64,000 bases of DNA, from the NCBI GenBank assembly GCA_965243255.1, contig CBDEUH010000004.1, positions 1,790,979 to 1,854,978 on the forward strand, written 5' to 3'. Below are positions 26,876-63,012 of the stretch, piece after piece. A model generated the notes under the pieces. It had not been told where the DNA came from. It did no database searches and saw nothing but the letters and a program-made list of their open reading frames with translations. Position 1 is the first letter of the stretch, and every line of letters starts with the position of its first letter. Source of the stretch: Dehalococcoidia bacterium. GTDB taxonomy: Bacteria; Chloroflexota; Dehalococcoidia; Lucifugimonadales; UBA3495. Position numbers and translations under genes: made by a program.

Positions 26876-27361
26876 TTAGCGGCGGTCGAAGCCGATTTGG
26901 ACGATGCGGGGTTGGTCAACGCCGGCGACGCCGACGTACTGGAAGAGGGCGCCGTCGGCATCGCGGGGTTGGGCGTCCTGGACGATGACGGTTTCGCCGC
27001 CGAGGAGGAGGTTGGCGAAGGGCGCGGCCTGGGAGTCGGAGCCCGGGTCGGTGGGGAAAACGAAGCTGAGGCCGGGGACGTTGGTGAACTCGATATGTCC
27101 GTCTTCGTCGCTAATCCAGAATTCGTCGATGGTGGTGGAGTCGGCGATGCGGCCGAGGGCGACGTCGATTTCCTGGGGGGTCATGCCGGCGCGGAGGGCG
27201 GCGTCGATGTAGTAGGCAGTGAGGGTGGCTTGAGCGACCATGTGGTCGGTCTCGGGGATTGGGGCGGCGACGGGAGCATCGGCATCGTTGCCGTTAGCGC
27301 CGCAGGCGATGGCCAGCGCCAGGATGATGGAGAGGGCGGTAAAGAGTATGGCTCTGGGCAT
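26876..27361 (-). CDS. Small lipoprotein, function unknown
   Basis: ATG 27359-27361 chosen (MPRAILFTALSIILALAIACGANG…); lipobox LAIAC; 161 aa. Confidence 0.55.
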   Translation of the reverse strand: MPRAILFTALSIILALAIACGANGNDADAPVAAPIPETDHMVAQATLTAYYIDAALRAGMTPQEIDVALGRIADSTTIDEFWISDEDGHIEFTNVPGLSFVFPTDPGSDSQAAPFANLLLGGETVIVQDAQPRDADGALFQYVGVAGVDQPRIVQIGFDRR

Positions 27362-27382
27362 TAGTGGGTCTCCTTGGCCTCG

Positions 27383-27418: not shown

Positions 27419-27451
27419 TATTTTACACGATACGGTTAGAGGGGTGATTTG

Positions 27452-27460
27452 TGCTAGAAT
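27452..27460 (+). promoter_or_regulatory. Extended -10 box TGCTAGAAT upstream of PRP-TIR gene
   Basis: 31 nt upstream of ATG 27492; a GGAG RBS follows. Confidence 0.4.
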
Positions 27461-27491
27461 CGTGGCCGAAATCCCTTTTGGAGACATACTG

Positions 27492-28775
27492 ATGGCCAAT
27501 ATGGAACTGGTCCAAATCGTGAAGCAGGGGCGGGACGCCGTGACAGCGTGGCGGGAGGAGAACCCCAATCAGCAAATGGACCTGAACGCGTGCTACATGA
27601 GCCATGCCCGGATTCCCATGGTGAACCTGCGGGGCGCGGATATGCGGGACGGCGACTTCATGGGGGCGATGGTGCGCCGGGCGGACCTGTCGAACAGCTA
27701 TCTGAACGACGCGCACTTTTACCGGGCCGACCTGCGGGAGGTGAACCTGAGCCGGGCGATTGCGCCGGGGGCGAACCTGCGGGGGGCCGACCTGCGCAAC
27801 GCCAACCTGGCCGGGATTAACCTGGACCGGGGGACGCTGTCGGAGGCGAACCTGTCGGGGGCGGATTTGACCAACGCCAACCTGGACCGGGCCAACCTGG
27901 ACCGGACCAACCTGACCGGGGCGAACCTGACCGGGGCCAGCTTCAACGGGGCGAATCTGTCGCGCACCAACCTGTCGGGGGCCATTCTGAACGAGGCGGA
28001 CTTTTACGAGGCGGTGCTGAACGACACGGTTACCGAAGAGGCGGACTTTCACAACTGCATCATCGGGTACACGGTGTTCCAAAACTGCGCCATGGACGCG
28101 GCGGTGGGCCTGGAGAGCGTGCGGCACGACGCGCCGAGCACCATTGGGCTGGACACCCTGCTGAGGTCACGGGGCATGTTGCCGGAGTCGTTCATCCTGG
28201 GTTCCGGGGTGCCGATTGGGGTATCGGGGATACAGGACTCGGTGTCGGACGCGCTGGTAACGACGCTGGAGGTGCACATTTCCTGCGCGAACGGGGACAT
28301 TGAGTTTGCCCGGCAGCTGGAGGCCAACCTGCGGGCGCAGGGAGTGCGCAGCTGGGTGTTCGCCGAAGGGTTCCGGGGCAATCCGCTGGTGGACCGGCGG
28401 GCGACGTCCGGTGAGGAAGAAATCGAGAGGTGGATTCGGCATTACGACCGGCTGGTGGTGGTGTGCACGGCGGACGGGCTGGACAGCGAGACGGTGCGCA
28501 ACGACATCACGGCGGCGCAGGAAGCGGAGCGAAGCGGGGACCAGTGGACGATGTACCTGGTGGACGCCGACGGCGTGATGGGCGCCGGGCGCAACCGGGC
28601 GGCGCGGCTGCTGAAGGAGGAGCACCGGGTGTTTGACCTGACCGGGCAGGATGGAGGGTCGGAGGAGTACCAGGCGGCGTTGGTGGACCTGATTGACAAC
28701 TTGAGGCAGGAGCAGCCGGCCAGCGCGGCGAAGCCACCGCGGCAGGCGGCGGACCCGAGGACGCTGCAGCTGTAG
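27492..28775 (+). CDS. Pentapeptide-repeat protein with C-terminal TIR-like domain
   Basis: ATG 27492 with GGAG RBS upstream. ~35 A(D/N)LxG pentapeptide units (…ANLRGADLRNANLAGINLDRGTLSEANLSGADLTNANL…). The C-terminal ~150 aa begins VHISCANGDIEFARQLEANLRAQGVRSWV…RLVVVCTADGLDSETVRNDI…, a TIR_2-like pattern of strands and helices. Confidence 0.7.
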   Translation: MANMELVQIVKQGRDAVTAWREENPNQQMDLNACYMSHARIPMVNLRGADMRDGDFMGAMVRRADLSNSYLNDAHFYRADLREVNLSRAIAPGANLRGADLRNANLAGINLDRGTLSEANLSGADLTNANLDRANLDRTNLTGANLTGASFNGANLSRTNLSGAILNEADFYEAVLNDTVTEEADFHNCIIGYTVFQNCAMDAAVGLESVRHDAPSTIGLDTLLRSRGMLPESFILGSGVPIGVSGIQDSVSDALVTTLEVHISCANGDIEFARQLEANLRAQGVRSWVFAEGFRGNPLVDRRATSGEEEIERWIRHYDRLVVVCTADGLDSETVRNDITAAQEAERSGDQWTMYLVDADGVMGAGRNRAARLLKEEHRVFDLTGQDGGSEEYQAALVDLIDNLRQEQPASAAKPPRQAADPRTLQL

Positions 28776-28838: not shown

Positions 28839-28864
28839 CAGGGGCGGGAGTGATCCCGCCCCTG
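28839..28864. terminator. Hairpin between convergent PRP-TIR and rdhA-like genes
   Basis: caggggcggga-gtga-tcccgcccctg (11-bp stem). Confidence 0.6.
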
Positions 28865-28911: not shown

Positions 28912-30186
28912 TTAGATGTAGTCTTCCTCTTCGTACATCATGTCGACATTATCGGTGCTCTGGCCGAGGCCGCGGGTGACGTCGTTGCGGAAGGCTTCCA
29001 GCATCGAATCGGTGATCTCGTTGCCGTTGGCGCGGGCGGCGTCCTTGAGCTGGTCGAAGGCCCACTCGGAGGTGTCGCCGTGGGGCATGTCGAAGAAGCC
29101 GGGCTCGAAGACGGGGAGTTCGCCGGGGCCGAAGTAGCCCTTGCCCTCGATGTTGTAACCTTCGAGGTCGTGGGTGCCCTTGCCGAGGACCTGACCGGTG
29201 GCAGCGTAGTGCTCCATGGTGGCCTTCATGCCGTACTTCTGGATGGGGCAGACCTTCATGCAGACGCCGCAACCGAGGTAGCGGGCCATGACGGGCCGGC
29301 AGCGCTTGAAGTAGAGCTTGTTCTTCTCGATGCCGCGCCACCAGATCTTGTCGCGCATGAGGGCGCGGCCGGGGCAGCGGTTGACGCAGACCTGGCAGAC
29401 CTGACAGAAGGCGTGGATGCCGTAGTCCACCGGGCTGTCATAGGTGACGTTGGCGTCGGTGGTGATCATCATGATGCGGCAGCGGGAGCCGACGTGGGGG
29501 GTCAGCAGGTAGCCGCAGGCGCCGAGCTGTCCGAGGCCGGCGGCGACGAACATCGGGATGTAGGGGCCGGTGTTGTCGTTGGGGCTGTGGACCTGGGCGC
29601 GGTAGCCGAGGCTGCGGACGAAGTTGCCCAGTTCCAGGCCGGCCGCGCCTTCAGTGCGGTAGGTGCTGGAGTGGACGATTTCGGCGTCGATGCTGGGGAT
29701 GGTCTGGGTAGGTTCGAAGTCCTGCTCGTAGGCCAAGCAGATGACGTGGGGGAAGCGGACCCAGTCCTTCTTGCTCTGATAGACGTAGCGGATGTCGAAG
29801 GCAGCGATGCCGACTTCGACGAAGCCGAGCTCGCGGGCCTTCTGCTTGATGGCCTCGGTGACGTCGTCGCCGGAGGATTCGGCGGTGGGTTCGAGGTCGC
29901 CGGTCAAGCGGGCAGCCATGACGAGGTTGCGATTGAGCTTGTCGTGTTCCTTGCGGATTTCGCGCATCTCGGCGTGCTGGTCGCGGAGGGTGTTGGCCCA
30001 GTCGCGGGAGGCTCGCTCGGTGATGTTCATGGTTTCGACGGGATACTCGCGGGAGTACCAGTCAACTTCGCGCTGGTTCATGGGGATGCCGGGAGTGGTT
30101 TCGAGCTCCTCGGGCACCGGGATGGTGACAGGCGCGTCGCCCAGATACTTGCCGGGACGCCGTACCTCATGACCGATGGTTAGCAT
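28912..30186 (-). CDS. Cytoplasmic 4Fe-4S protein of the reductive-dehalogenase / epoxyqueuosine-reductase (RdhA/QueG) superfamily, paralogue 1
   Basis: 424 aa. AAGLGQLGACGYLLTPHVGSRCRIMMITTD core, then CQVCQVCVNRCP (Cx2Cx2Cx3CP) and C…CGVCMKVCP clusters. No Tat signal. Confidence 0.7.
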   Translation of the reverse strand: MLTIGHEVRRPGKYLGDAPVTIPVPEELETTPGIPMNQREVDWYSREYPVETMNITERASRDWANTLRDQHAEMREIRKEHDKLNRNLVMAARLTGDLEPTAESSGDDVTEAIKQKARELGFVEVGIAAFDIRYVYQSKKDWVRFPHVICLAYEQDFEPTQTIPSIDAEIVHSSTYRTEGAAGLELGNFVRSLGYRAQVHSPNDNTGPYIPMFVAAGLGQLGACGYLLTPHVGSRCRIMMITTDANVTYDSPVDYGIHAFCQVCQVCVNRCPGRALMRDKIWWRGIEKNKLYFKRCRPVMARYLGCGVCMKVCPIQKYGMKATMEHYAATGQVLGKGTHDLEGYNIEGKGYFGPGELPVFEPGFFDMPHGDTSEWAFDQLKDAARANGNEITDSMLEAFRNDVTRGLGQSTDNVDMMYEEEDYI

Positions 30187-30233
30187 ATCCTCCTCCTTCT
30201 GATGGACTGCCTAGATAGGCCGAATTTGGAGAA

Positions 30234-30262
30234 AAGATACTGCCGCCCCAAGTAATTGTCAA
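30234..30262 (-). promoter_or_regulatory. Sigma70-like promoter of rdhA-like paralogue 1 (TTGACA-17-TATCTT)
   Basis: Minus-strand reading of 30257-30262 (-35) and 30234-30239 (-10), in a 211-bp AT-rich spacer. Confidence 0.45.
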
Positions 30263-30341
30263 TACTTGGGCAGTGGAATCATCATATTCTATTGCATGAT
30301 GATGATTATTTAGAGGCGGGAATAGGTGAGGAAAGGAAAAA

Positions 30342-30365
30342 GCCGGCGGGATTGCTCCCGCCGGC
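30342..30365 (-). terminator. Hairpin with T-runs on both strands after rdhA-like paralogue 2
   Basis: gccggcggga-ttgc-tcccgccggc, flanked by aaaaa / ttttt. Confidence 0.65.
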
Positions 30366-30397
30366 CCTTTTTGCCGGTTGGCGAGGTTGGGGGGCTA

Positions 30398-31675
30398 CTA
30401 GATGTAGTCCTGGTCCTCGGCCATCATTGCGAGAACGTCGCCGCTCTGCAGGGCAATGGAGCGCTGGATCTGGACCTTGAGGTCTTCGATCATCGCATCG
30501 GGGATTTCGCCTTCGTTCTCAGCGGCGGCTTCCTTCATGGACTCGAAGGCCCACTCGTCGGAGTTGCCGTGAGGCATGTCGAAGAAGCCACGCTCGAAGA
30601 CGGGGAGTTCGCCGGGGCCGAAGTAGCCCTTGCCTTCCAGGTTGTAGCCTTCGAGGTCGTGGGTGCCCTTGCCGAGGACCTGACCGGTGGCGGCGTAGTG
30701 CTCCATGACGTTCTTGAGGCCGTACTTCTGGATGGGGCAAACCTTCATGCAGACGCCGCAGCCGAGATAGCGGGCCATGACGGGGCGACAGCGCTTGAAG
30801 TAGAGCTTGTTCTTCTCGATACCGCGCCACCAGATCTTGTCGCGCATGAGGGCGCGGCCGGGGCAGCGGTTCACGCAGACCTGGCAAACCTGGCAGAAGG
30901 CGTGGATGCCGTAGTCGACGGGCGCGTCGTGGGTGACGTTGGCGTCGGTGGTGACCATCATCAGCCGCATCCGGTTGCCGGTGTGCGGGGACAGCAGGTA
31001 TCCGCAGGCGCCCAGGGAGCCGAGACCGGCGGCCACGAACATGGGGATGACGGGGCCGGTGGCGTCGCTGGAGTGGACGACGTGGGCCTTGTAGCCCAGG
31101 GAGCGGATGAAGTTGCCCAGTTCCAGGCCGGCCGCAGCCTGAGTGCGGTAGGTGCTGGAGTGGACGATCTCAGCGTCGATGCTGGGGATGGTCTGGGTGG
31201 GCTCGAAGTCCTGCTCGTAGGCCAAGCAGATGGCGTGGGGCAGAACGGTGAAGCCGCGCTTGCTCTTGTAGTCGTAGCGGGGGTCGTAGGAGGTGATGCC
31301 CACTTCCAGGTAACCCAGCTGGCGCGCCTTGTCCTTGATGAGCTGAGAGACGTCCTCGCCGCTGGATTCAGCGGTGGGCTCCATCTCGGCGGTGGCGCGG
31401 GCGGCCATGATCAGGTTGGAGTTGAGCTTGTCGTGCTCCTTACGAATCTCCCGCATTTCGGCGTGGAGGTCGCGGAGGGTGTTGGCCCAGTCGCGGGAAG
31501 CGCGCTCGGTGATGTTCATGGTTTCCAGCGGATATTCGCGGGCGTACCAGTCAACTTCGCGGCCGGTCATGGGGATGCCGGGGACAGTTTCCAGTTCTTC
31601 GGGAACCGGAATCGTGATTTCGGCGTCGCCCCAGTGGCGTCCGGGTCGGCGCACCTCGTGCCCAATGGTAAGCAT
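30398..31675 (-). CDS. Cytoplasmic 4Fe-4S protein of the RdhA/QueG superfamily, paralogue 2
   Basis: 425 aa, colinear with paralogue 1 (roughly four-fifths identical by eye). The 66-aa Fe-S block VDYGIHAFCQVC…CPIQKYG is identical. Confidence 0.7.
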   Translation of the reverse strand: MLTIGHEVRRPGRHWGDAEITIPVPEELETVPGIPMTGREVDWYAREYPLETMNITERASRDWANTLRDLHAEMREIRKEHDKLNSNLIMAARATAEMEPTAESSGEDVSQLIKDKARQLGYLEVGITSYDPRYDYKSKRGFTVLPHAICLAYEQDFEPTQTIPSIDAEIVHSSTYRTQAAAGLELGNFIRSLGYKAHVVHSSDATGPVIPMFVAAGLGSLGACGYLLSPHTGNRMRLMMVTTDANVTHDAPVDYGIHAFCQVCQVCVNRCPGRALMRDKIWWRGIEKNKLYFKRCRPVMARYLGCGVCMKVCPIQKYGLKNVMEHYAATGQVLGKGTHDLEGYNLEGKGYFGPGELPVFERGFFDMPHGNSDEWAFESMKEAAAENEGEIPDAMIEDLKVQIQRSIALQSGDVLAMMAEDQDYI

Positions 31676-31730
31676 ATCAGCCTCCTCAGTGGTTGGCTCT
31701 GCCGCAGGATTGCGGCGGTATTTGGGGCAA

Positions 31731-31758
31731 TTTATACCCTATGCGGAACCTTTGTCAA
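31731..31758 (-). promoter_or_regulatory. Sigma70-like promoter of rdhA-like paralogue 2 (TTGACA-16-TATAAA)
   Basis: Minus-strand reading of 31753-31758 (-35) and 31731-31736 (-10). Confidence 0.45.
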
Positions 31759-31907
31759 CAGCAATTTGCAAGTTCCCGGGGGAATTCCCGGTGAATTACG
31801 GATTTCGTCGCCGGAAAGGAGATTTATTCGCGAATGGCTCCGAATTTTGGACGGCAATCGGAACAGGCGGGGTTGGCGGGGAAAAGGTGGCGGGCAACCC
31901 CGGAAAG

Positions 31908-33575
31908 TCAGGAGCCGGTGCGGCGGGCGATCATGGCGTCGGCCAGGGGGCTGGCGCCGGACCTGACGGCGATGTTGACCAGGGAGGGGCGCCCGGAGTT
32001 GATGGCGCGCTCCACGGCCGGGGCCACGTCGTCGGGCTGTTCGACGAGCTCGGCGTGTCCGCCGATGCCGGCCACCACCTGGTCGTAGCGGACGCCGGGG
32101 CGGAGAGCGGTGCCAACGTCGCGTCCGAAGTAGGCCAGCTGGAAGGTGCGGTCGATGCCCCAGTTGCCGTCGTTGCCCATGATGCCGGTGATGTTGAGGT
32201 TGTGGCGGATGCAGGTGTCGTACTCCATGGAGTAGAAGCCGAAGGAGCCGTCGCCCATGAAGGCCAGCACCTTGCTGTCGGGGTAGGCCAGCTTGGCGGC
32301 CATGGCGTAGGGGATTGCGCCGCCCAGGTGGCTCAGGGGGCCGAGGCGCATGAAGTGTCCGGGCTTGCGGGCGGGCAGGTAGCAGCGGCCCCACTGGACG
32401 TAGTCGCCGCCGTCCAGCACGATGAAGGTGTCCTCGTCAACCAGGTGCTCGATGCGGGTGTACACGTCGAGGGGGTGCATGGGGGCCTGGCCGGTGGCGT
32501 TGCTGCGGAGGCTATCGAGCCAGGCGGTGTGTTCCTGCTTGAGTTGGTCGAGCCAGGGGCCGAGGCTGCGGTTGGGTTTGGCGGCGGCGGTGAGCTGGTC
32601 AACGATGGCGCCGAGGTCGCCGAGCAGGCCGACGGCGACGCCCCGGTTGCGTCCGATTTCGGCCGGGGAGGGGTCGGCCTGGATGAGCTTGGTGTCGGCA
32701 TTGAAGATGCCGCCGTAGCGGTAGCGGTGGTCGAGACGCTTGCCCAGGAGCAGGACCACGTCGGCCTCGCGGAACTTGCGAGCGGTATGGTTCAGAGCGC
32801 CGTCGGCGTAGCCGAAGCAGAGGGGATGGAGGTCGTCGATGAGGCCGCGGGCCTGCTCGACGGTGAAGATGGGGGCGCCGGTGGCTTCGACCAGGGCTTC
32901 CAACTGGGCCGGTTCGACGGAGTAGCGGGCCGGGTTGCCGACGATGATGACGGGTCGCTGGGCGTTGGCGAGGAGGTTGGCGGCCTGCTCGATGAGGGTA
33001 GGGTCGCCCTGGGGACGGCCCATGTTGCGGTATTCCTGGGGCAGATACGGGGGCAGGTCTTCCTCGCTGATGGGGGCTTCCTGCAGGTCGATGGGCAGGG
33101 TGAGATGGACCGGGCCGGGGCGTCCGCTCATGGCGGTGCGGAAGGCGGTGGCGACGAATTCGGGGATGCGCTGCTTGTCGTGAATCAGCCAGGAGCCCTT
33201 GGAAACGGGGGCGGCCATGGCGACCTGGTCGATTTCCTGGAAGGTGGCCTGTCCCTTTTCGGGGAGTTCGGCGCAGCCGGCGACGAAGATGACGGGGCTT
33301 TCGGAGGTGTAGATGGCGGGCAGGCCGGAGATGGCGTTGGCGAAGCCGGGACCACCGGTGAACAAAGCGACGGCGGGCTGGCCGGTGATGCGGGCGTAGC
33401 CGTCGGCCATGTGCATGGCGGCGCCTTCGTGTCGGGTGTCGATGAACTCGATGCCCTCGTCGGCGGCGGCGTCCACCAGGGGTAGGATGGTATCGCCCAC
33501 GATGGTGAAGACCTTTTGGACTCCTTCCTGTTTCAGGCAGCGGATAAAGAGGTGGCCCCCGTTCAGGTCCGGCAT
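31908..33575 (-). CDS. Thiamine-diphosphate-dependent enzyme (acetolactate synthase / decarboxylase-like)
   Basis: 555 aa with the three-domain TPP layout: …HEGAAMHMADGYARITGQPAV…GGPGFANA… and the TPP motif GDGSFGF…N. Confidence 0.85.
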   Translation of the reverse strand: MPDLNGGHLFIRCLKQEGVQKVFTIVGDTILPLVDAAADEGIEFIDTRHEGAAMHMADGYARITGQPAVALFTGGPGFANAISGLPAIYTSESPVIFVAGCAELPEKGQATFQEIDQVAMAAPVSKGSWLIHDKQRIPEFVATAFRTAMSGRPGPVHLTLPIDLQEAPISEEDLPPYLPQEYRNMGRPQGDPTLIEQAANLLANAQRPVIIVGNPARYSVEPAQLEALVEATGAPIFTVEQARGLIDDLHPLCFGYADGALNHTARKFREADVVLLLGKRLDHRYRYGGIFNADTKLIQADPSPAEIGRNRGVAVGLLGDLGAIVDQLTAAAKPNRSLGPWLDQLKQEHTAWLDSLRSNATGQAPMHPLDVYTRIEHLVDEDTFIVLDGGDYVQWGRCYLPARKPGHFMRLGPLSHLGGAIPYAMAAKLAYPDSKVLAFMGDGSFGFYSMEYDTCIRHNLNITGIMGNDGNWGIDRTFQLAYFGRDVGTALRPGVRYDQVVAGIGGHAELVEQPDDVAPAVERAINSGRPSLVNIAVRSGASPLADAMIARRTGS

Positions 33576-62310: not shown

Positions 62311-63012
62311 ATGGCAAACAACGAACACGTGGAAATAGTGCGGGCCGGCAAAGTCGGCCTGGAATCCTGGCGGGCGGACAACCCGGAGGGGACGCTGGAC
62401 CTGAGGGTCGCCGATTTGAGCGGCCTGGACCTGGCCGGGGCCGACCTGCGGGGGAGCGATCTGCGGGGGGCGAACCTGGCCGACGCGCGGCTGACCAGGG
62501 CCAACCTGTCACGCTGCGATCTGCGGGCTACCGACTTCACCGGGGCCGATCTCTATGGGGCGACGCTGGCGTCGGCGGAGATGGCGATGGCCATCCTGCG
62601 CAACGTCAACCTGTTCTGGGCGGACCTGAAGCAATCCAACATGCAGGAAAGCGTTTTGCAGTGGTCGCGGCTCAATCGGGCGTCGTTCCTGAATACGGAC
62701 CTGACCGCCGCCGATTGCAGCCAGACCACGGCCATCGAGGTTGACCTGCGCTCGGCCAACCTGACTGACTCCAACTGGCAGGGGGCGAACATGAACGGGG
62801 CCGACGTGAGCCGGGCCGTGATGCAGGGGGCGGATTTCACCAACGCCAAAATCCGAGACTCCATGTGGATCATGACCGACCTGCGGGGGGCGAACTTCAA
62901 CCAGGCCAGCCTGCATCGCTGCGACATGACCATGGGCAAGTGGGACGATACGACGCGGTTCCCGCCCGGCTTCGACCCCACCCACATCGAAAACCGGGTG
63001 GACGACTACTAA
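62311..63012 (+). CDS. Pentapeptide-repeat protein
   Basis: 233 aa with continuous A(D/N)LxG-type repeats. The N-terminus MANNEHVEIVRAGKVGLESWRADNP is paralogous to that of the 27492 gene. Confidence 0.85.
   Translation: MANNEHVEIVRAGKVGLESWRADNPEGTLDLRVADLSGLDLAGADLRGSDLRGANLADARLTRANLSRCDLRATDFTGADLYGATLASAEMAMAILRNVNLFWADLKQSNMQESVLQWSRLNRASFLNTDLTAADCSQTTAIEVDLRSANLTDSNWQGANMNGADVSRAVMQGADFTNAKIRDSMWIMTDLRGANFNQASLHRCDMTMGKWDDTTRFPPGFDPTHIENRVDDY

What the first reader, a model, noticed from the sequence alone, without database searches (positions are those of the whole stretch)
27492..28775. Pentapeptide-repeat beta-helix fused to a TIR-like domain
The N-terminal ~250 aa are uninterrupted A(D/N)LxG pentapeptide repeats, a fold known for DNA mimicry. 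A ~60-aa linker follows. The C-terminal ~150 aa then read like a TIR_2-type domain: betaA VHISCANGD, alphaA IEFARQLEANLRAQG, betaB VRSWVF, …RLVVVCTADGL, DSETVRNDI (a Glu in the usual catalytic neighbourhood). Bacterial TIR domains are typically NAD-consuming effectors in anti-phage systems. A DNA-mimic sensor or decoy joined to a TIR domain would be an unusual single-gene architecture. The gene is solitary, with its own extended -10 promoter and a terminator.
Basis: partly seen in the sequence, partly recalled or inferred. Interest (0 to 1): 0.6.

Follow-up and report, generated by a model that had tools for sequence, protein, structure and literature searches.

The report
Core-genome pentapeptide-TIR protein, altered site
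The gene really does join a pentapeptide-repeat beta-helix to a TIR domain, but in this marine Dehalococcoidia family it is a universal, vertically inherited gene with Asp replacing the TIR catalytic Glu, so it looks like a domesticated TIR protein rather than a mobile antiphage NAD-destroyer.

Summary
Window 27492-28775 (+) encodes a 427-aa cytoplasmic protein: a two-helix cap, 36 in-register pentapeptide repeats, a conserved 52-aa linker, a TIR domain and a short conserved tail. Pfam TIR_2 scores 36.6 bits (cut-off 28), and the best Foldseek hits are TIR domains.

- The fusion is not unusual. PRP plus C-terminal TIR is a large family found patchily across many phyla.
The canonical Glu column holds an invariant Asp (D338), the adjacent Trp is lost, and the BB-loop is 7 residues longer and nearly invariant.
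- The gene behaves as a core gene, not as typical defence cargo. It is in 89 of 89 high-quality genomes of its family (26 of 27 genera) and in no other family of a 301-genome class sample. dN/dS is about 0.09, and no PADLOC system matches.
- It sits next to RdhA-like and TPP-enzyme genes in f1 and in every Glu-keeping outgroup lineage checked.

My best reading (about 0.45) is a domesticated TIR protein with a remodelled nucleotide pocket, acting as a resident sensor or regulator. Function is untested. I class it as a new variant of a known kind.

The parts
27451..27459 (+). Extended -10 promoter element, TGCTAGAAT.
   Evidence: It is invariant as TGCTA(A/G)AAT in 12 species of the genus while the flanking spacer diverges. 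The same 9-mer recurs 40-103 nt upstream of the orthologue in at least 10 other genera. The generic -35/-10 scan did not call it.
27480..27485 (+). Shine-Dalgarno sequence, GGAGAC, 6 nt before the ATG.
   Evidence: GGAGAC is kept in 11 of 12 species (GGATAC in the twelfth), and five of its six bases are invariant. The sequence is read.
27492..28775 (+). Coding sequence of the 427-aa PRP-TIR protein (P0001), including the stop codon.
   Evidence: More than 120 full-length orthologues of 421-427 aa start at the same Met.
27492..27569 (+). N-terminal two-helix cap, residues 1-26.
   Evidence: AF2 places helices at 4-12 and 14-23. Mean column identity is 0.81. The cap is shared with the paralogues.
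27570..28109 (+). Pentapeptide-repeat right-handed beta-helix, residues 27-206: 36 pentads, about 9 coils, with no loop insertions.
   Evidence: Pfam Pentapeptide E = 3.6e-37. The pentad register is shown. AF2 pLDDT is 93-99. Foldseek matches HetL, MfpA, QnrB1 and AlbG at E = 1e-12 to 1e-6.
28110..28265 (+). Conserved linker, residues 207-258, with the motif GL..VRHDAPSTxGxDTLxRSxGxxPxxF..G.G.P.
   Evidence: Invariant residues include H212, D213, A214, P215, S216, G219, D221, S226, G228, F234 and G239. A similar H.GPS...FLRG.G.P motif is present in canonical PRP-TIRs of other phyla. dN/dS is 0.068.
28266..28706 (+). TIR domain, residues 259-405.
   Evidence: TIR_2 scores 36.6 bits against a cut-off of 28. 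Foldseek best matches are TIR domains, with TM 0.50-0.57 and E from 3.5e-4. hhalign to the canonical PRP-TIR profile gives 99.5% probability.
28365..28445 (+). Extended BB-loop/alphaB segment, residues 292-318: EGFRGNPLVDRRATSGEEEIERWIRHY.
   Evidence: This is the best-conserved part of the TIR domain, with mean column identity 0.80. Median dN is 0 among 12 species while dS is about 1. It carries 3+4 extra residues relative to canonical relatives. AF2 confidence is below 50 in both models.
28485..28508 (+). Active-site motif SETVRNDI, residues 332-339.
   Evidence: Translated. The canonical relative P0219 aligns its W...E to AbTir kkdWtnyEldgl. MAFFT, the tree alignment and hhalign all place D338 under that Glu. 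D338 and E333 are invariant in 43 of 43 sequences.
28707..28772 (+). C-terminal tail, residues 406-427, with the conserved QPASAG motif; most orthologues end in QL.
   Evidence: AF2 confidence is low for residues 419-427.
28839..28864 (.). G+C-rich hairpin between the convergent PRP-TIR and RdhA-like genes, a likely terminator.
   Evidence: The stem has 11 bp with 9 G-C pairs, followed by the tail CGTTTGGTCT. The fold has z = -2.3.
28912..31675 (-). Two tandem RdhA/QueG-like Fe-S protein genes (28912-30186 and 30398-31675). They are the conserved neighbours of PRP-TIR.
   Evidence: NCBIfam RDH scores 101 bits, below its cut-off of 160. They are the only two copies in the genome. An RdhA-like gene lies beside PRP-TIR in most f1 loci read: 17 of the 19 f1 genome regions fetched and all three contigs looked up that reach the downstream gene. 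One also lies directly upstream, on the same strand, in every Glu-keeping outgroup lineage checked.
31908..33575 (-). Thiamine-pyrophosphate enzyme (acetolactate-synthase-like or 2-hydroxyacyl-CoA-lyase-like), the third member of the conserved block.
   Evidence: Pfam TPP_enzyme_N, _M and _C all match. NCBIfam scores are below the equivalog cut-offs. The gene is conserved beside the RdhA-like genes and in L124 and L041.

Best explanation
What the gene encodes (shown). The gene encodes a cytoplasmic, constitutively promoted protein. A rigid, acidic pentapeptide-repeat beta-helix is joined to a TIR domain through a conserved linker.

Evolutionary history (shown).
- The protein descends from the large, horizontally scattered PRP-TIR family, whose members keep the canonical S-x-W-x3-E TIR active site.
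- One Trp-less branch of that family settled immediately downstream of an RdhA-like/TPP-enzyme gene block in Dehalococcoidia.
- In one family (f1) the gene was inverted in place and became a universal single-copy core gene.
- In that family the catalytic Glu changed to an invariant Asp, and the BB-loop became longer and nearly invariant.

Likely mechanism (inferred). The protein is a domesticated TIR protein rather than a mobile abortive-infection NADase.
- Its remodelled pocket (D338, E333, R336/N337 and the BB-loop) probably still binds an NAD-like nucleotide. It may process that nucleotide slowly or with altered chemistry.
- The beta-helix and linker probably provide the docking or oligomerisation surface that gates the pocket.
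- The result would be a resident sensor or regulator serving a cell-intrinsic function of this lineage, possibly connected with the neighbouring RdhA-like/TPP module.

Status of the claims. Architecture, active-site substitutions, distribution, selection and synteny are shown. Ligand, activity, partners and biological role are inferred.
For: Architecture and fold.

Active site.
- The canonical relative P0219 aligns its W...E to AbTir's W...E.
- Three independent alignments put D338 under that Glu and T334 under the Trp.
- Asp is present in 43 of 43 family members and in all f1 loci read.
- The nearest outgroups keep Glu (VRNEI, LREEM, LRGEM). The tree therefore implies a single E-to-D change at the base of a clade with SH-aLRT 100.

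Core-gene behaviour.
- The orthologue is in 25 of 25 genomes of the genus.
- It is in 149 of 151 genomes, 89 of 89 high-quality genomes and 26 of 27 genera of the family.
- In a 301-genome class sample it is found only in the two genomes of that family.
- Length is constant at 414-427 aa.
- dN/dS is 0.09 in all domains, and median dN is 0 in the BB-loop.

Context.
- Synteny with coaBC-coaX and with the RdhA-like and TPP genes holds across genera.
- There is no PADLOC match.

Contrast with canonical PRP-TIRs.
- They are 55-67% identical across Acidobacteriota, Chloroflexota, Chlorobi, SAR324, Ignavibacteria, Verrucomicrobia, Poribacteria and others.
- They have no recurrent neighbour.
- One close outgroup sits beside a transposase and a STAND-like gene.

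Literature. The catalytic Glu and the BB-loop Asp/Gly are described as crucial for NADase activity in all TIRs studied, and TIRs lacking them act as regulators (PMC13732033).
Against: - Glu to Asp is a conservative change. The Asp is invariant and lies in a strongly constrained pocket, so catalysis, including NAD+ cleavage, may well persist. No assay exists.
- Some immune genes are core within a lineage, so being a core gene does not exclude an immune role.
- The BB-loop, which carries much of the argument, is modelled with low confidence. No active-site geometry could be inspected.
- Foldseek similarity to solved TIRs is only moderate (TM 0.50-0.57, E >= 3.5e-4).
- The link to the RdhA-like/TPP block may be inherited gene order only. 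In f1 the genes are convergent, with separate promoters and a terminator. RdhA-like genes occur widely without PRP-TIR (92 versus 15 of 201 genomes). Locus L122 shares both flanks with an f1 locus, which shows that this region rearranges slowly in general.
Confidence: 0.45

Rival explanations
1. Resident single-gene immune sensor. The TIR domain is an active NADase or signal synthase that uses Asp338 as its catalytic acid. The beta-helix senses a phage DNA-binding protein or another infection cue, oligomerisation follows, and NAD+ is depleted (abortive infection). The system simply became fixed in this lineage.
For: - It belongs by descent to the PRP-TIR family, whose canonical members have an intact W...E site, are scattered across phyla and sometimes lie by mobile or conflict genes.
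- The pocket residues and BB-loop are under very strong constraint, as expected for an enzyme.
- The gene is solitary and has its own promoter.
Against: - The catalytic Glu and the Trp are both replaced.
- Presence is universal with stable position across 26 genera, and dN/dS is a uniform 0.09 with no sign of diversifying selection on the supposed sensor surface.
- There is no PADLOC hit, and the neighbours are metabolic.
Confidence: 0.25
2. Catalytically inactive TIR used only for protein-protein assembly. It would act as an adaptor or as a regulator of another TIR, for example the second PRP-TIR paralogue present in most genomes of the family. This would be analogous to the sensor TIRs of paired plant NLRs, which lack the catalytic Glu.
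For: - The Glu and the Trp are lost.
- Most family genomes carry a second PRP-TIR paralogue of about 35% identity.
- Plant sensor TIRs without the Glu or the BB-loop Asp regulate an executor TIR (PMC13732033).
Against: - An Asp kept invariant at the catalytic column, together with invariant E333, R336 and N337, points to a ligand pocket rather than a relaxed site.
- Several genera (g210, g211, g216, g231, g232) show only the focal copy at the search threshold.
- The two genes are about 1.09 Mb apart in this genome.
Confidence: 0.15
3. Accessory factor of the RdhA-like/TPP-enzyme module. The PRP-TIR acts on, regulates or supplies a nucleotide-derived factor to the neighbouring Fe-S (possibly cobamide) enzyme pathway.
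For: - An RdhA-like gene lies directly next to PRP-TIR in most f1 loci read. In every Glu-keeping outgroup lineage checked it lies upstream on the same strand, with gaps down to 164 nt.
- The genome's only two RdhA-like genes are the ones beside it.
- All 15 PRP-TIR-positive genomes in the order sample have the RdhA-like gene, against 77 of 186 negatives (Fisher p = 4e-6, not corrected for phylogeny).
Against: - Only about four independent lineages are involved.
- In f1 the genes are convergent, with their own promoter and terminator.
- RdhA-like genes are common without PRP-TIR.
- The other flank is also conserved between an outgroup locus and an f1 locus, so the region may simply rearrange slowly.
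- No biochemical logic is established.
Confidence: 0.12
4. Host-directed eukaryote-like effector of a sponge symbiont, which would interfere with host TIR signalling in the manner of BtpA/TcpB.
For: Bacterial TIR proteins of pathogens mimic host adaptors; this is background knowledge.
Against: - Orthologues with the same synteny occur in pelagic Tara Oceans and open-ocean assemblies.
- The N-terminus is a conserved helical cap with no signal peptide.
- The gene is universal in the family regardless of source.
Confidence: 0.03

Closest known systems
Canonical bacterial PRP-TIR proteins: uncharacterised, annotated as 'toll/interleukin-1 receptor domain-containing protein' or 'YjbI pentapeptide repeats'.
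   Same: - The order of parts is the same: N-terminal helical cap, pentapeptide beta-helix, H.GPS...FLRG.G.P linker, C-terminal TIR_2 domain.
- The TIR domains match profile-to-profile at 99.5% probability over 157 columns.
- The focal clade nests inside this family in the tree.
   Different: - Canonical members keep S-x-W-V-x2-E and a short BB-loop.
- They are scattered across many phyla at 55-67% identity, often with several copies per genome and no fixed neighbours.
- The focal clade has Asp for Glu, Thr for Trp and 7 extra BB-loop residues. It is a single-copy core gene with fixed synteny.
Bacterial TIR NADases of the AbTir / PdTIR / BtpA(TcpB) type.
   Same: The fold is TIR (Foldseek hits 7uxu, 3h16, 4lzp). 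The betaA-alphaA-betaB sequence is similar. Canonical PRP-TIR relatives hit these proteins at E = 1e-7 to 1e-4.
   Different: - Asp occupies the column of AbTir's catalytic Glu, and the Trp is absent.
- The BB-loop is remodelled.
- The N-terminal partner domain is a beta-helix, not a coiled coil.
- No activity data exist.
TIR modules of known defence systems: Thoeris ThsB, SPARTA TIR-APAZ and TIR-STING/CBASS effectors.
   Same: SPARTA TIR-APAZ is the best structural match (E = 3.5e-4, TM about 0.55).
   Different: - There is no ThsA, short Argonaute, cyclase or STING partner nearby.
- No PADLOC model matches beyond a weak HEC-01B hit at E = 0.0037.
- The catalytic Glu is not conserved.
DNA-mimic pentapeptide-repeat proteins (MfpA, Qnr, AlbG) and HetL.
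   Same: It has the right-handed quadrilateral beta-helix, an acidic surface composition, and sub-threshold NCBIfam similarity to HetL and Qnr.
   Different: - All NCBIfam scores are far below the family cut-offs (for example Qnr 47 bits against 240).
- There are no Qnr-type loops.
- The C-terminus carries a TIR domain instead of a dimerisation helix.
- Interaction with gyrase or any other DNA-binding protein is untested.
Sensor TIR domains of paired plant TIR-NLRs (for example RRS1).
   Same: These are TIR domains that have lost the catalytic Glu and yet are conserved and functional as regulators (PMC13732033).
   Different: They belong to a different kingdom and architecture. [quoted passage not shown] Here a conservative Asp is strictly kept and the BB-loop is hyper-conserved.

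Membership tests
TIR domain superfamily (Pfam TIR_2, PF13676) | Sequence match to the family profile above the curated cut-off. | tested here: met
   The score is 36.6 bits against a gathering cut-off of 28, over residues 261-351. hhalign to canonical PRP-TIR TIR domains gives 99.5% probability and E = 1e-22.
TIR domain superfamily (Pfam TIR_2, PF13676) | Flavodoxin-like five-stranded alpha/beta TIR fold. | tested here: met
   AF2 predicts betaA to betaE with intervening helices. The best PDB matches are TIR domains, but only at TM 0.50-0.57 and E >= 3.5e-4.
Catalytic TIR NADases (AbTir, SARM1, ThsB, plant TIRs) | Catalytic Glu at the start of alphaC (the W-x3-E motif in bacterial TIRs). | tested here: not met
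   Asp338 occupies the column and Thr334 replaces the Trp. This holds in all 43 family members aligned and in all f1 loci read.
Catalytic TIR NADases (AbTir, SARM1, ThsB, plant TIRs) | BB-loop Gly and Asp needed to form the composite active site. | tested here: inconclusive
   An invariant R295-G296 and a conserved D/E301 exist. However, 3+4 inserted residues make the register ambiguous, and the loop is modelled at pLDDT below 50.
Catalytic TIR NADases (AbTir, SARM1, ThsB, plant TIRs) | NAD+ cleavage or cyclisation activity. | not testable with these tools
   This needs a biochemical assay.
Pentapeptide repeat proteins (Pfam PF00805) | Tandem A(D/N)LXX pentads forming a right-handed quadrilateral beta-helix. 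| tested here: met
   Pfam E = 3.6e-37. There are 36 in-register pentads. AF2 pLDDT is 93-99, and Foldseek matches HetL, MfpA and Qnr.
Qnr/MfpA DNA-mimic gyrase protectors | Membership of the Qnr or MfpA equivalog families, and interaction with gyrase. | tested here: not met
   NCBIfam Qnr scores 47.5 bits against a cut-off of 240, and MfpA scores 31.7 against 360. The interaction itself is not testable here.
Known anti-phage defence systems (PADLOC-DB v2) | Match to a defence-protein model, with the system's partner genes nearby. | tested here: not met
   The only hit is HEC-01B at E = 0.0037 and 15 bits. The neighbours are a lipoprotein, coaX, coaBC, RdhA-like genes and a TPP enzyme.
Typical mobile defence genes | Patchy distribution, variable genomic position and fast turnover. 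| tested here: not met
   The gene is in 89 of 89 high-quality genomes and 26 of 27 genera of the family. Synteny is conserved. dN/dS is 0.09.
PRP-TIR fusion family (unnamed) | Cap, PRP helix, H.(G/A)PS linker and C-terminal TIR in one polypeptide, with phylogenetic nesting inside the family. | tested here: met

The most novel reading that the evidence does not exclude
A bacterial TIR domain has been domesticated as a permanent companion of an RdhA-like (Fe-S, possibly cobamide) and TPP-enzyme metabolic module. It would use an Asp-based, Trp-less pocket with an extended BB-loop to carry out a different N-glycosidic reaction on a pyridine or related nucleotide. Examples would be base exchange, or synthesis of a regulatory or cofactor-related nucleotide, rather than NAD+ depletion. 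That would be a non-immune, metabolic role for a TIR enzyme.
Probability: 0.07. Interest if true: 0.85.

Novelty: new variant of a known kind. Interest (0 to 1): 0.55.

Why it matters
Bacterial TIR domains are now read almost automatically as NAD+-consuming antiphage effectors. This clade is a clear counter-example in its evolutionary behaviour. A TIR protein derived from a scattered, conflict-type family became a universal, slowly evolving, single-copy gene of a whole family of abundant marine Dehalococcoidia. A single fixed Glu-to-Asp change sits at the catalytic position, and the BB-loop has been rebuilt and is hyper-conserved.

The clade offers three things:
- a natural experiment on what an Asp-based TIR pocket does;
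- a traceable series of intermediates: canonical, then Trp-less with Glu, then Trp-less with Asp;
- an unexpected and persistent neighbourhood with RdhA-like and TPP-enzyme genes.

It also cautions against annotating every PRP-TIR or TIR_2 hit as a defence gene.

Tried and rejected
- Direct sequence search of the C-domain against PDB chains gave only chance-level hits. A family profile reached AbTir, PdTIR and TIR chains only weakly (E = 0.6-1.6) and only over betaA to betaB. The catalytic column was therefore mapped transitively, through canonical relatives that hit AbTir at E = 1e-7, and checked with hhalign.
- The generic sigma-70 scan found no promoter. Phylogenetic footprinting was used instead.
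- I tested whether canonical PRP-TIRs sit in defence islands. Among 142 neighbouring ORFs from 18 loci in different phyla, no Pfam family recurred in more than 3 proteins. Defence hits were few: two proteins matching type IIG RM/DrmMI models, two matching a dCTPase model and one WYL protein. No conclusion on defence-island enrichment can be drawn.
- I tested whether the RdhA-like gene occurs only with PRP-TIR. This was rejected: RdhA-like genes are in 92 of 201 genomes of the order, against 15 for PRP-TIR.
- The host-effector reading was rejected, because pelagic orthologues share the synteny.
- Literature searches found no paper on this clade, on PRP-TIR function, or on Asp-based TIR catalysis.
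Full report
**1. Observation**

Window 27492-28775 (+) is an intact ORF of 427 codons. The frame is open further upstream, but more than 120 full-length orthologues of 421-427 aa all begin MANME or MADIE. A conserved GGAGAC lies 6 nt before this ATG.

Pfam finds pentapeptide repeats at E = 3.6e-37. It finds TIR_2 at 36.6 bits, above the gathering cut-off of 28, over residues 261-351. NCBIfam gives only sub-threshold similarity to HetL, Qnr and MfpA. PADLOC gives nothing beyond a 15-bit hit.

AlphaFold2 on a 43-sequence family alignment gives pLDDT 87 and pTM 0.77. The model has:
- a two-helix cap (residues 4-23);
- a beta-helix from about 27 to 206;
- three short linker helices;
- a five-stranded alpha/beta domain (259-405).

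The repeats are 36 pentads in perfect register.

Foldseek on the whole model returns HetL, MfpA, Qnr and AlbG. Foldseek on the C-domain alone returns SPARTA TIR-APAZ, MyD88, TLR1, TIR-STING, BtpA, AbTir and PdTIR at E = 3.5e-4 to 1e-2 and TM 0.50-0.57.

**2. Promoter and terminator**

A generic -35/-10 scan finds nothing. However, TGCTAGAAT (27451-27459) is an extended -10, and it is invariant as TGCTA(A/G)AAT in 12 species while the rest of the spacer diverges. The same 9-mer recurs upstream of orthologues in at least ten other genera.

An 11-bp G+C-rich hairpin (28839-28864) separates the gene from the convergent downstream gene. The gene is monocistronic.

**3. The active site is not canonical**

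A canonical relative of the C-domain (P0219) aligns at E = 1e-7 with AbTir. Its ...S-A-W-V-E-D-E-I... falls on AbTir ...k-k-d-W-t-n-y-E-l.... That the Glu of this W-x3-E motif is AbTir's catalytic residue (E208) rests on my own knowledge of the literature.

Three alignments agree on the mapping: a MAFFT alignment, the independent alignment made for the tree, and a profile-profile comparison (99.5% probability, E = 1e-22, 157 columns). In all three:
- D338 falls under that Glu;
- T334 falls under the Trp;

D338 and E333 are invariant in 43 of 43 family members. The motif (R/L)(N/T)D(I/L/V) is present in every f1 locus read.

The segment between betaB and betaC (EGFRGNPLVDRRATSGEEEIERWIRHY, residues 292-318) is the best-conserved part of the TIR domain:
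- its mean column identity is 0.80;
- it has 3+4 residues more than in canonical relatives;
- it shows no non-synonymous change in most comparisons among 12 species although dS is about 1;
- it is modelled with pLDDT below 50 in both predictions.

According to PMC13732033, the catalytic Glu and the BB-loop Asp/Gly are crucial for NADase activity in all TIRs studied. The same paper reports that TIRs lacking them, the sensor members of paired plant NLRs, act as regulators.

**4. The fusion is a common architecture**

An exhaustive HMMER search of 1.84 billion representatives with the C-domain alone gave 139 clusters. Of 55 scanned, 53 have TIR_2 and 35 have pentapeptide repeats N-terminal to it. 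They share the same cap and the same H.GPS...FLRG.G.P linker.

One degenerate pattern from the canonical TIR found 435 confirmed copies in one-genome-per-species contigs. The best 80 are 55-67% identical across Acidobacteriota, several classes of Chloroflexota, Chlorobi, SAR324, Ignavibacteria, Desulfarculus, Verrucomicrobia, Poribacteria, Nitrospinota and Dormibacterota, sometimes with several copies per genome. Most of these carry S..S.W[VI]..E.

Their neighbours are heterogeneous, with no recurrent partner and only a few defence-type genes. The fusion itself is thus a widespread, scattered and experimentally uncharacterised module. Literature searches found no functional study of it.

**5. 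In this lineage the gene is a core gene**

- In the window's genus the orthologue is in 25 of 25 genomes at 76-100% identity.
- In a family-level sample it is in 149 of 151 genomes, 89 of 89 high-quality ones and 26 of 27 genera, at 46-100% identity, with one full-length copy in each.
- In a class-level sample of 301 genomes only the two members of this family have it.
- In an order-level sample of 201, only 15 genomes have any homologue at E <= 1e-60. These are the family members plus three other lineages at 36-43% identity.
- Nei-Gojobori dN/dS among 12 species is 0.09 overall: PRP 0.095, linker 0.068, TIR 0.085. dS is near 1.1, so these values are rough.

Source names for orthologues are 'Chloroflexi bacterium' and 'Dehalococcoidia bacterium'. 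Loci carrying a 57%-identical orthologue come from Tara Oceans and other open-ocean assemblies.

**6. Evolutionary path**

A quick maximum-likelihood tree gives this order:
- The f1 orthologues form one clade (SH-aLRT 100), and all carry Asp.
- Around them sit Trp-less but Glu-keeping proteins: P0180, P0178/G028, P0179 and P0187 (support 99).
- Outside those sit the canonical W...E proteins.

The Trp was therefore lost first, and E to D happened once at the base of the family clade. The quick search leaves many deeper forks unresolved, and the own-genome paralogue sits on a long branch.

**7. Neighbourhood**

Within the genus the order is coaBC, coaX, (small lipoprotein), PRP-TIR, RdhA-like, RdhA-like, TPP enzyme.

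Across the family:
- Of the 19 f1 genome regions fetched, from 19 different genera, 17 have one to four tandem RdhA-like genes (73-84% identity) next to and convergent with PRP-TIR. These are usually followed by the TPP enzyme.
- The same holds for three looked-up contigs and for L015.
- In G459 the RdhA-like gene is about 11 kb away. In G363 none was found in about 12.5 kb on that side, and in G433 none in the 11.6 kb up to the end of the contig.
- coaX-coaBC is kept on the other side in about half of the loci.

This genome has only two RdhA-like genes, and both are at this locus.

In every Glu-keeping outgroup lineage checked, an RdhA-like gene lies directly upstream of PRP-TIR on the same strand, with gaps of 164-2063 nt. 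These lineages are P0180, P0179, G028 and four sister genomes, G519 and G635. A TPP enzyme precedes the RdhA-like gene in two of them, L124 and L041. The gene was therefore inverted in place in f1.

The next outgroup, P0187, has no RdhA-like neighbour. It is instead one of a tandem PRP-TIR pair beside a DDE transposase and an AAA_16/TPR gene.

In the order sample, all 15 PRP-TIR-positive genomes have the RdhA-like gene, against 77 of 186 negatives (Fisher p = 4e-6, not corrected for phylogeny).

Three points argue against a functional link:
- RdhA-like genes are far more widespread than PRP-TIR.
- In f1 the two are transcribed separately.
- An outgroup locus shares both flanks with an f1 locus, so the region may simply be stable.

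**8. Paralogues**

Most genomes of the family have a second PRP-TIR of about 35% identity. In this genome it lies at G000:C4:2913270-2914271 and scores 27.6 bits on TIR_2, just under the cut-off. Some genomes also have a PRP-only protein that shares the cap and helix. In this window it is at 62311-62928.

**9. Interpretation**

Shown:
- the architecture;
- the TIR fold;
- the Asp-for-Glu and Thr-for-Trp replacements;
- the extended, invariant BB-loop;
- universal vertical inheritance in one family;
- strong purifying selection;
- no defence partners;
- persistent adjacency to RdhA-like and TPP genes.

Inferred: the protein is a domesticated TIR. Its constrained pocket most likely still binds an NAD-like nucleotide, with activity weak or altered, and the beta-helix and linker provide docking or oligomerisation. 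It would act as a resident sensor or regulator (confidence about 0.45).

Rivals:
- a fixed single-gene immune NADase that uses Asp (0.25);
- a non-catalytic adaptor, perhaps paired with the paralogue (0.15);
- an accessory of the RdhA-like/TPP module (0.12; this overlaps with the main reading);
- a host-directed effector (0.03).

**10. Relation to earlier notes of this scan**

After I had reached the Asp and core-gene result, a look-up by sequence showed that an earlier follow-up on another marine Dehalococcoidia genome (e1-2134207) reported the same reading. It is an AI note, not independent evidence.

- the family-wide count;
- the tree with its order of changes;
- the dN/dS profile;
- the promoter footprint;
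- the conserved RdhA-like/TPP neighbourhood, including the in-place inversion.

**11. Limits**

- There was no access to model coordinates.
- Confidence in the BB-loop model is low.
- Structural similarity to solved TIRs is only moderate.
- The tree is a quick search.
- The co-occurrence statistics are not phylogenetically corrected.

Noticed in passing
window 28912-33575 (-), and loci L016-L041, L122-L124: A block of one to four tandem RdhA/QueG-like Fe-S genes plus a TPP enzyme is conserved beside PRP-TIR across the family and in outgroup lineages. The RdhA-like proteins are 73-84% identical across genera, which is more conserved than CoaBC or CoaX in the same loci. One genome (G519) has eight copies.
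   Followed up: partly
G000:C4:2913270-2914271 (-) = L002 1315-2754 (-); window 62311-62928 (+): The genome holds a second PRP-TIR paralogue of about 35% identity, with TIR_2 at 27.6 bits (just under the cut-off) and an unclear catalytic column. It also holds a PRP-only paralogue that shares the N-terminal cap and helix. The second PRP-TIR paralogue recurs in most genomes of the family; the PRP-only one was seen in some genomes of the genus.
   Followed up: partly
window 28707-28772 (+): After the last TIR helix the tail keeps a QPASAG motif, and nearly all orthologues end in Gln-Leu. Glu-keeping outgroups have a related (D/Q)(Q/E)EASxG. It may be a short linear docking or processing motif.
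   Followed up: no
window 28401-28412 (+), residues D301-R302-R303-x-T305-S306: The invariant BB-loop contains a basic-x-Thr-Ser patch (DRRxTS) followed by an acidic run (EEExER), in a segment AF2 cannot place. It could be a regulatory, for example phosphorylatable, loop. This is pure conjecture.
   Followed up: no
The extended -10 and the Shine-Dalgarno just downstream are conserved.
   Followed up: partly
window 26876-27364 (-): The divergent 162-aa putative lipoprotein matches no Pfam or NCBIfam family. It was found in only 8 of 12 species of the genus at this position.
   Followed up: partly
L130 4952-7068: A Trp-less, Glu-keeping PRP-TIR occurs as a tandem pair next to a SWIM/DDE transposase and an AAA_16/TPR STAND-like gene. 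This is the kind of mobile or conflict context the focal clade lacks.
   Followed up: no
L124 319-1845: An N6/N4 methyltransferase plus an ApaLI-type restriction endonuclease pair lies about 5 kb from the outgroup TPP/RdhA-like/PRP-TIR block.
   Followed up: no
L122 1-3807: A group II intron-type reverse transcriptase/maturase and a Transposase_mut gene lie a few kb upstream of the outgroup RdhA-like/PRP-TIR pair.
   Followed up: no
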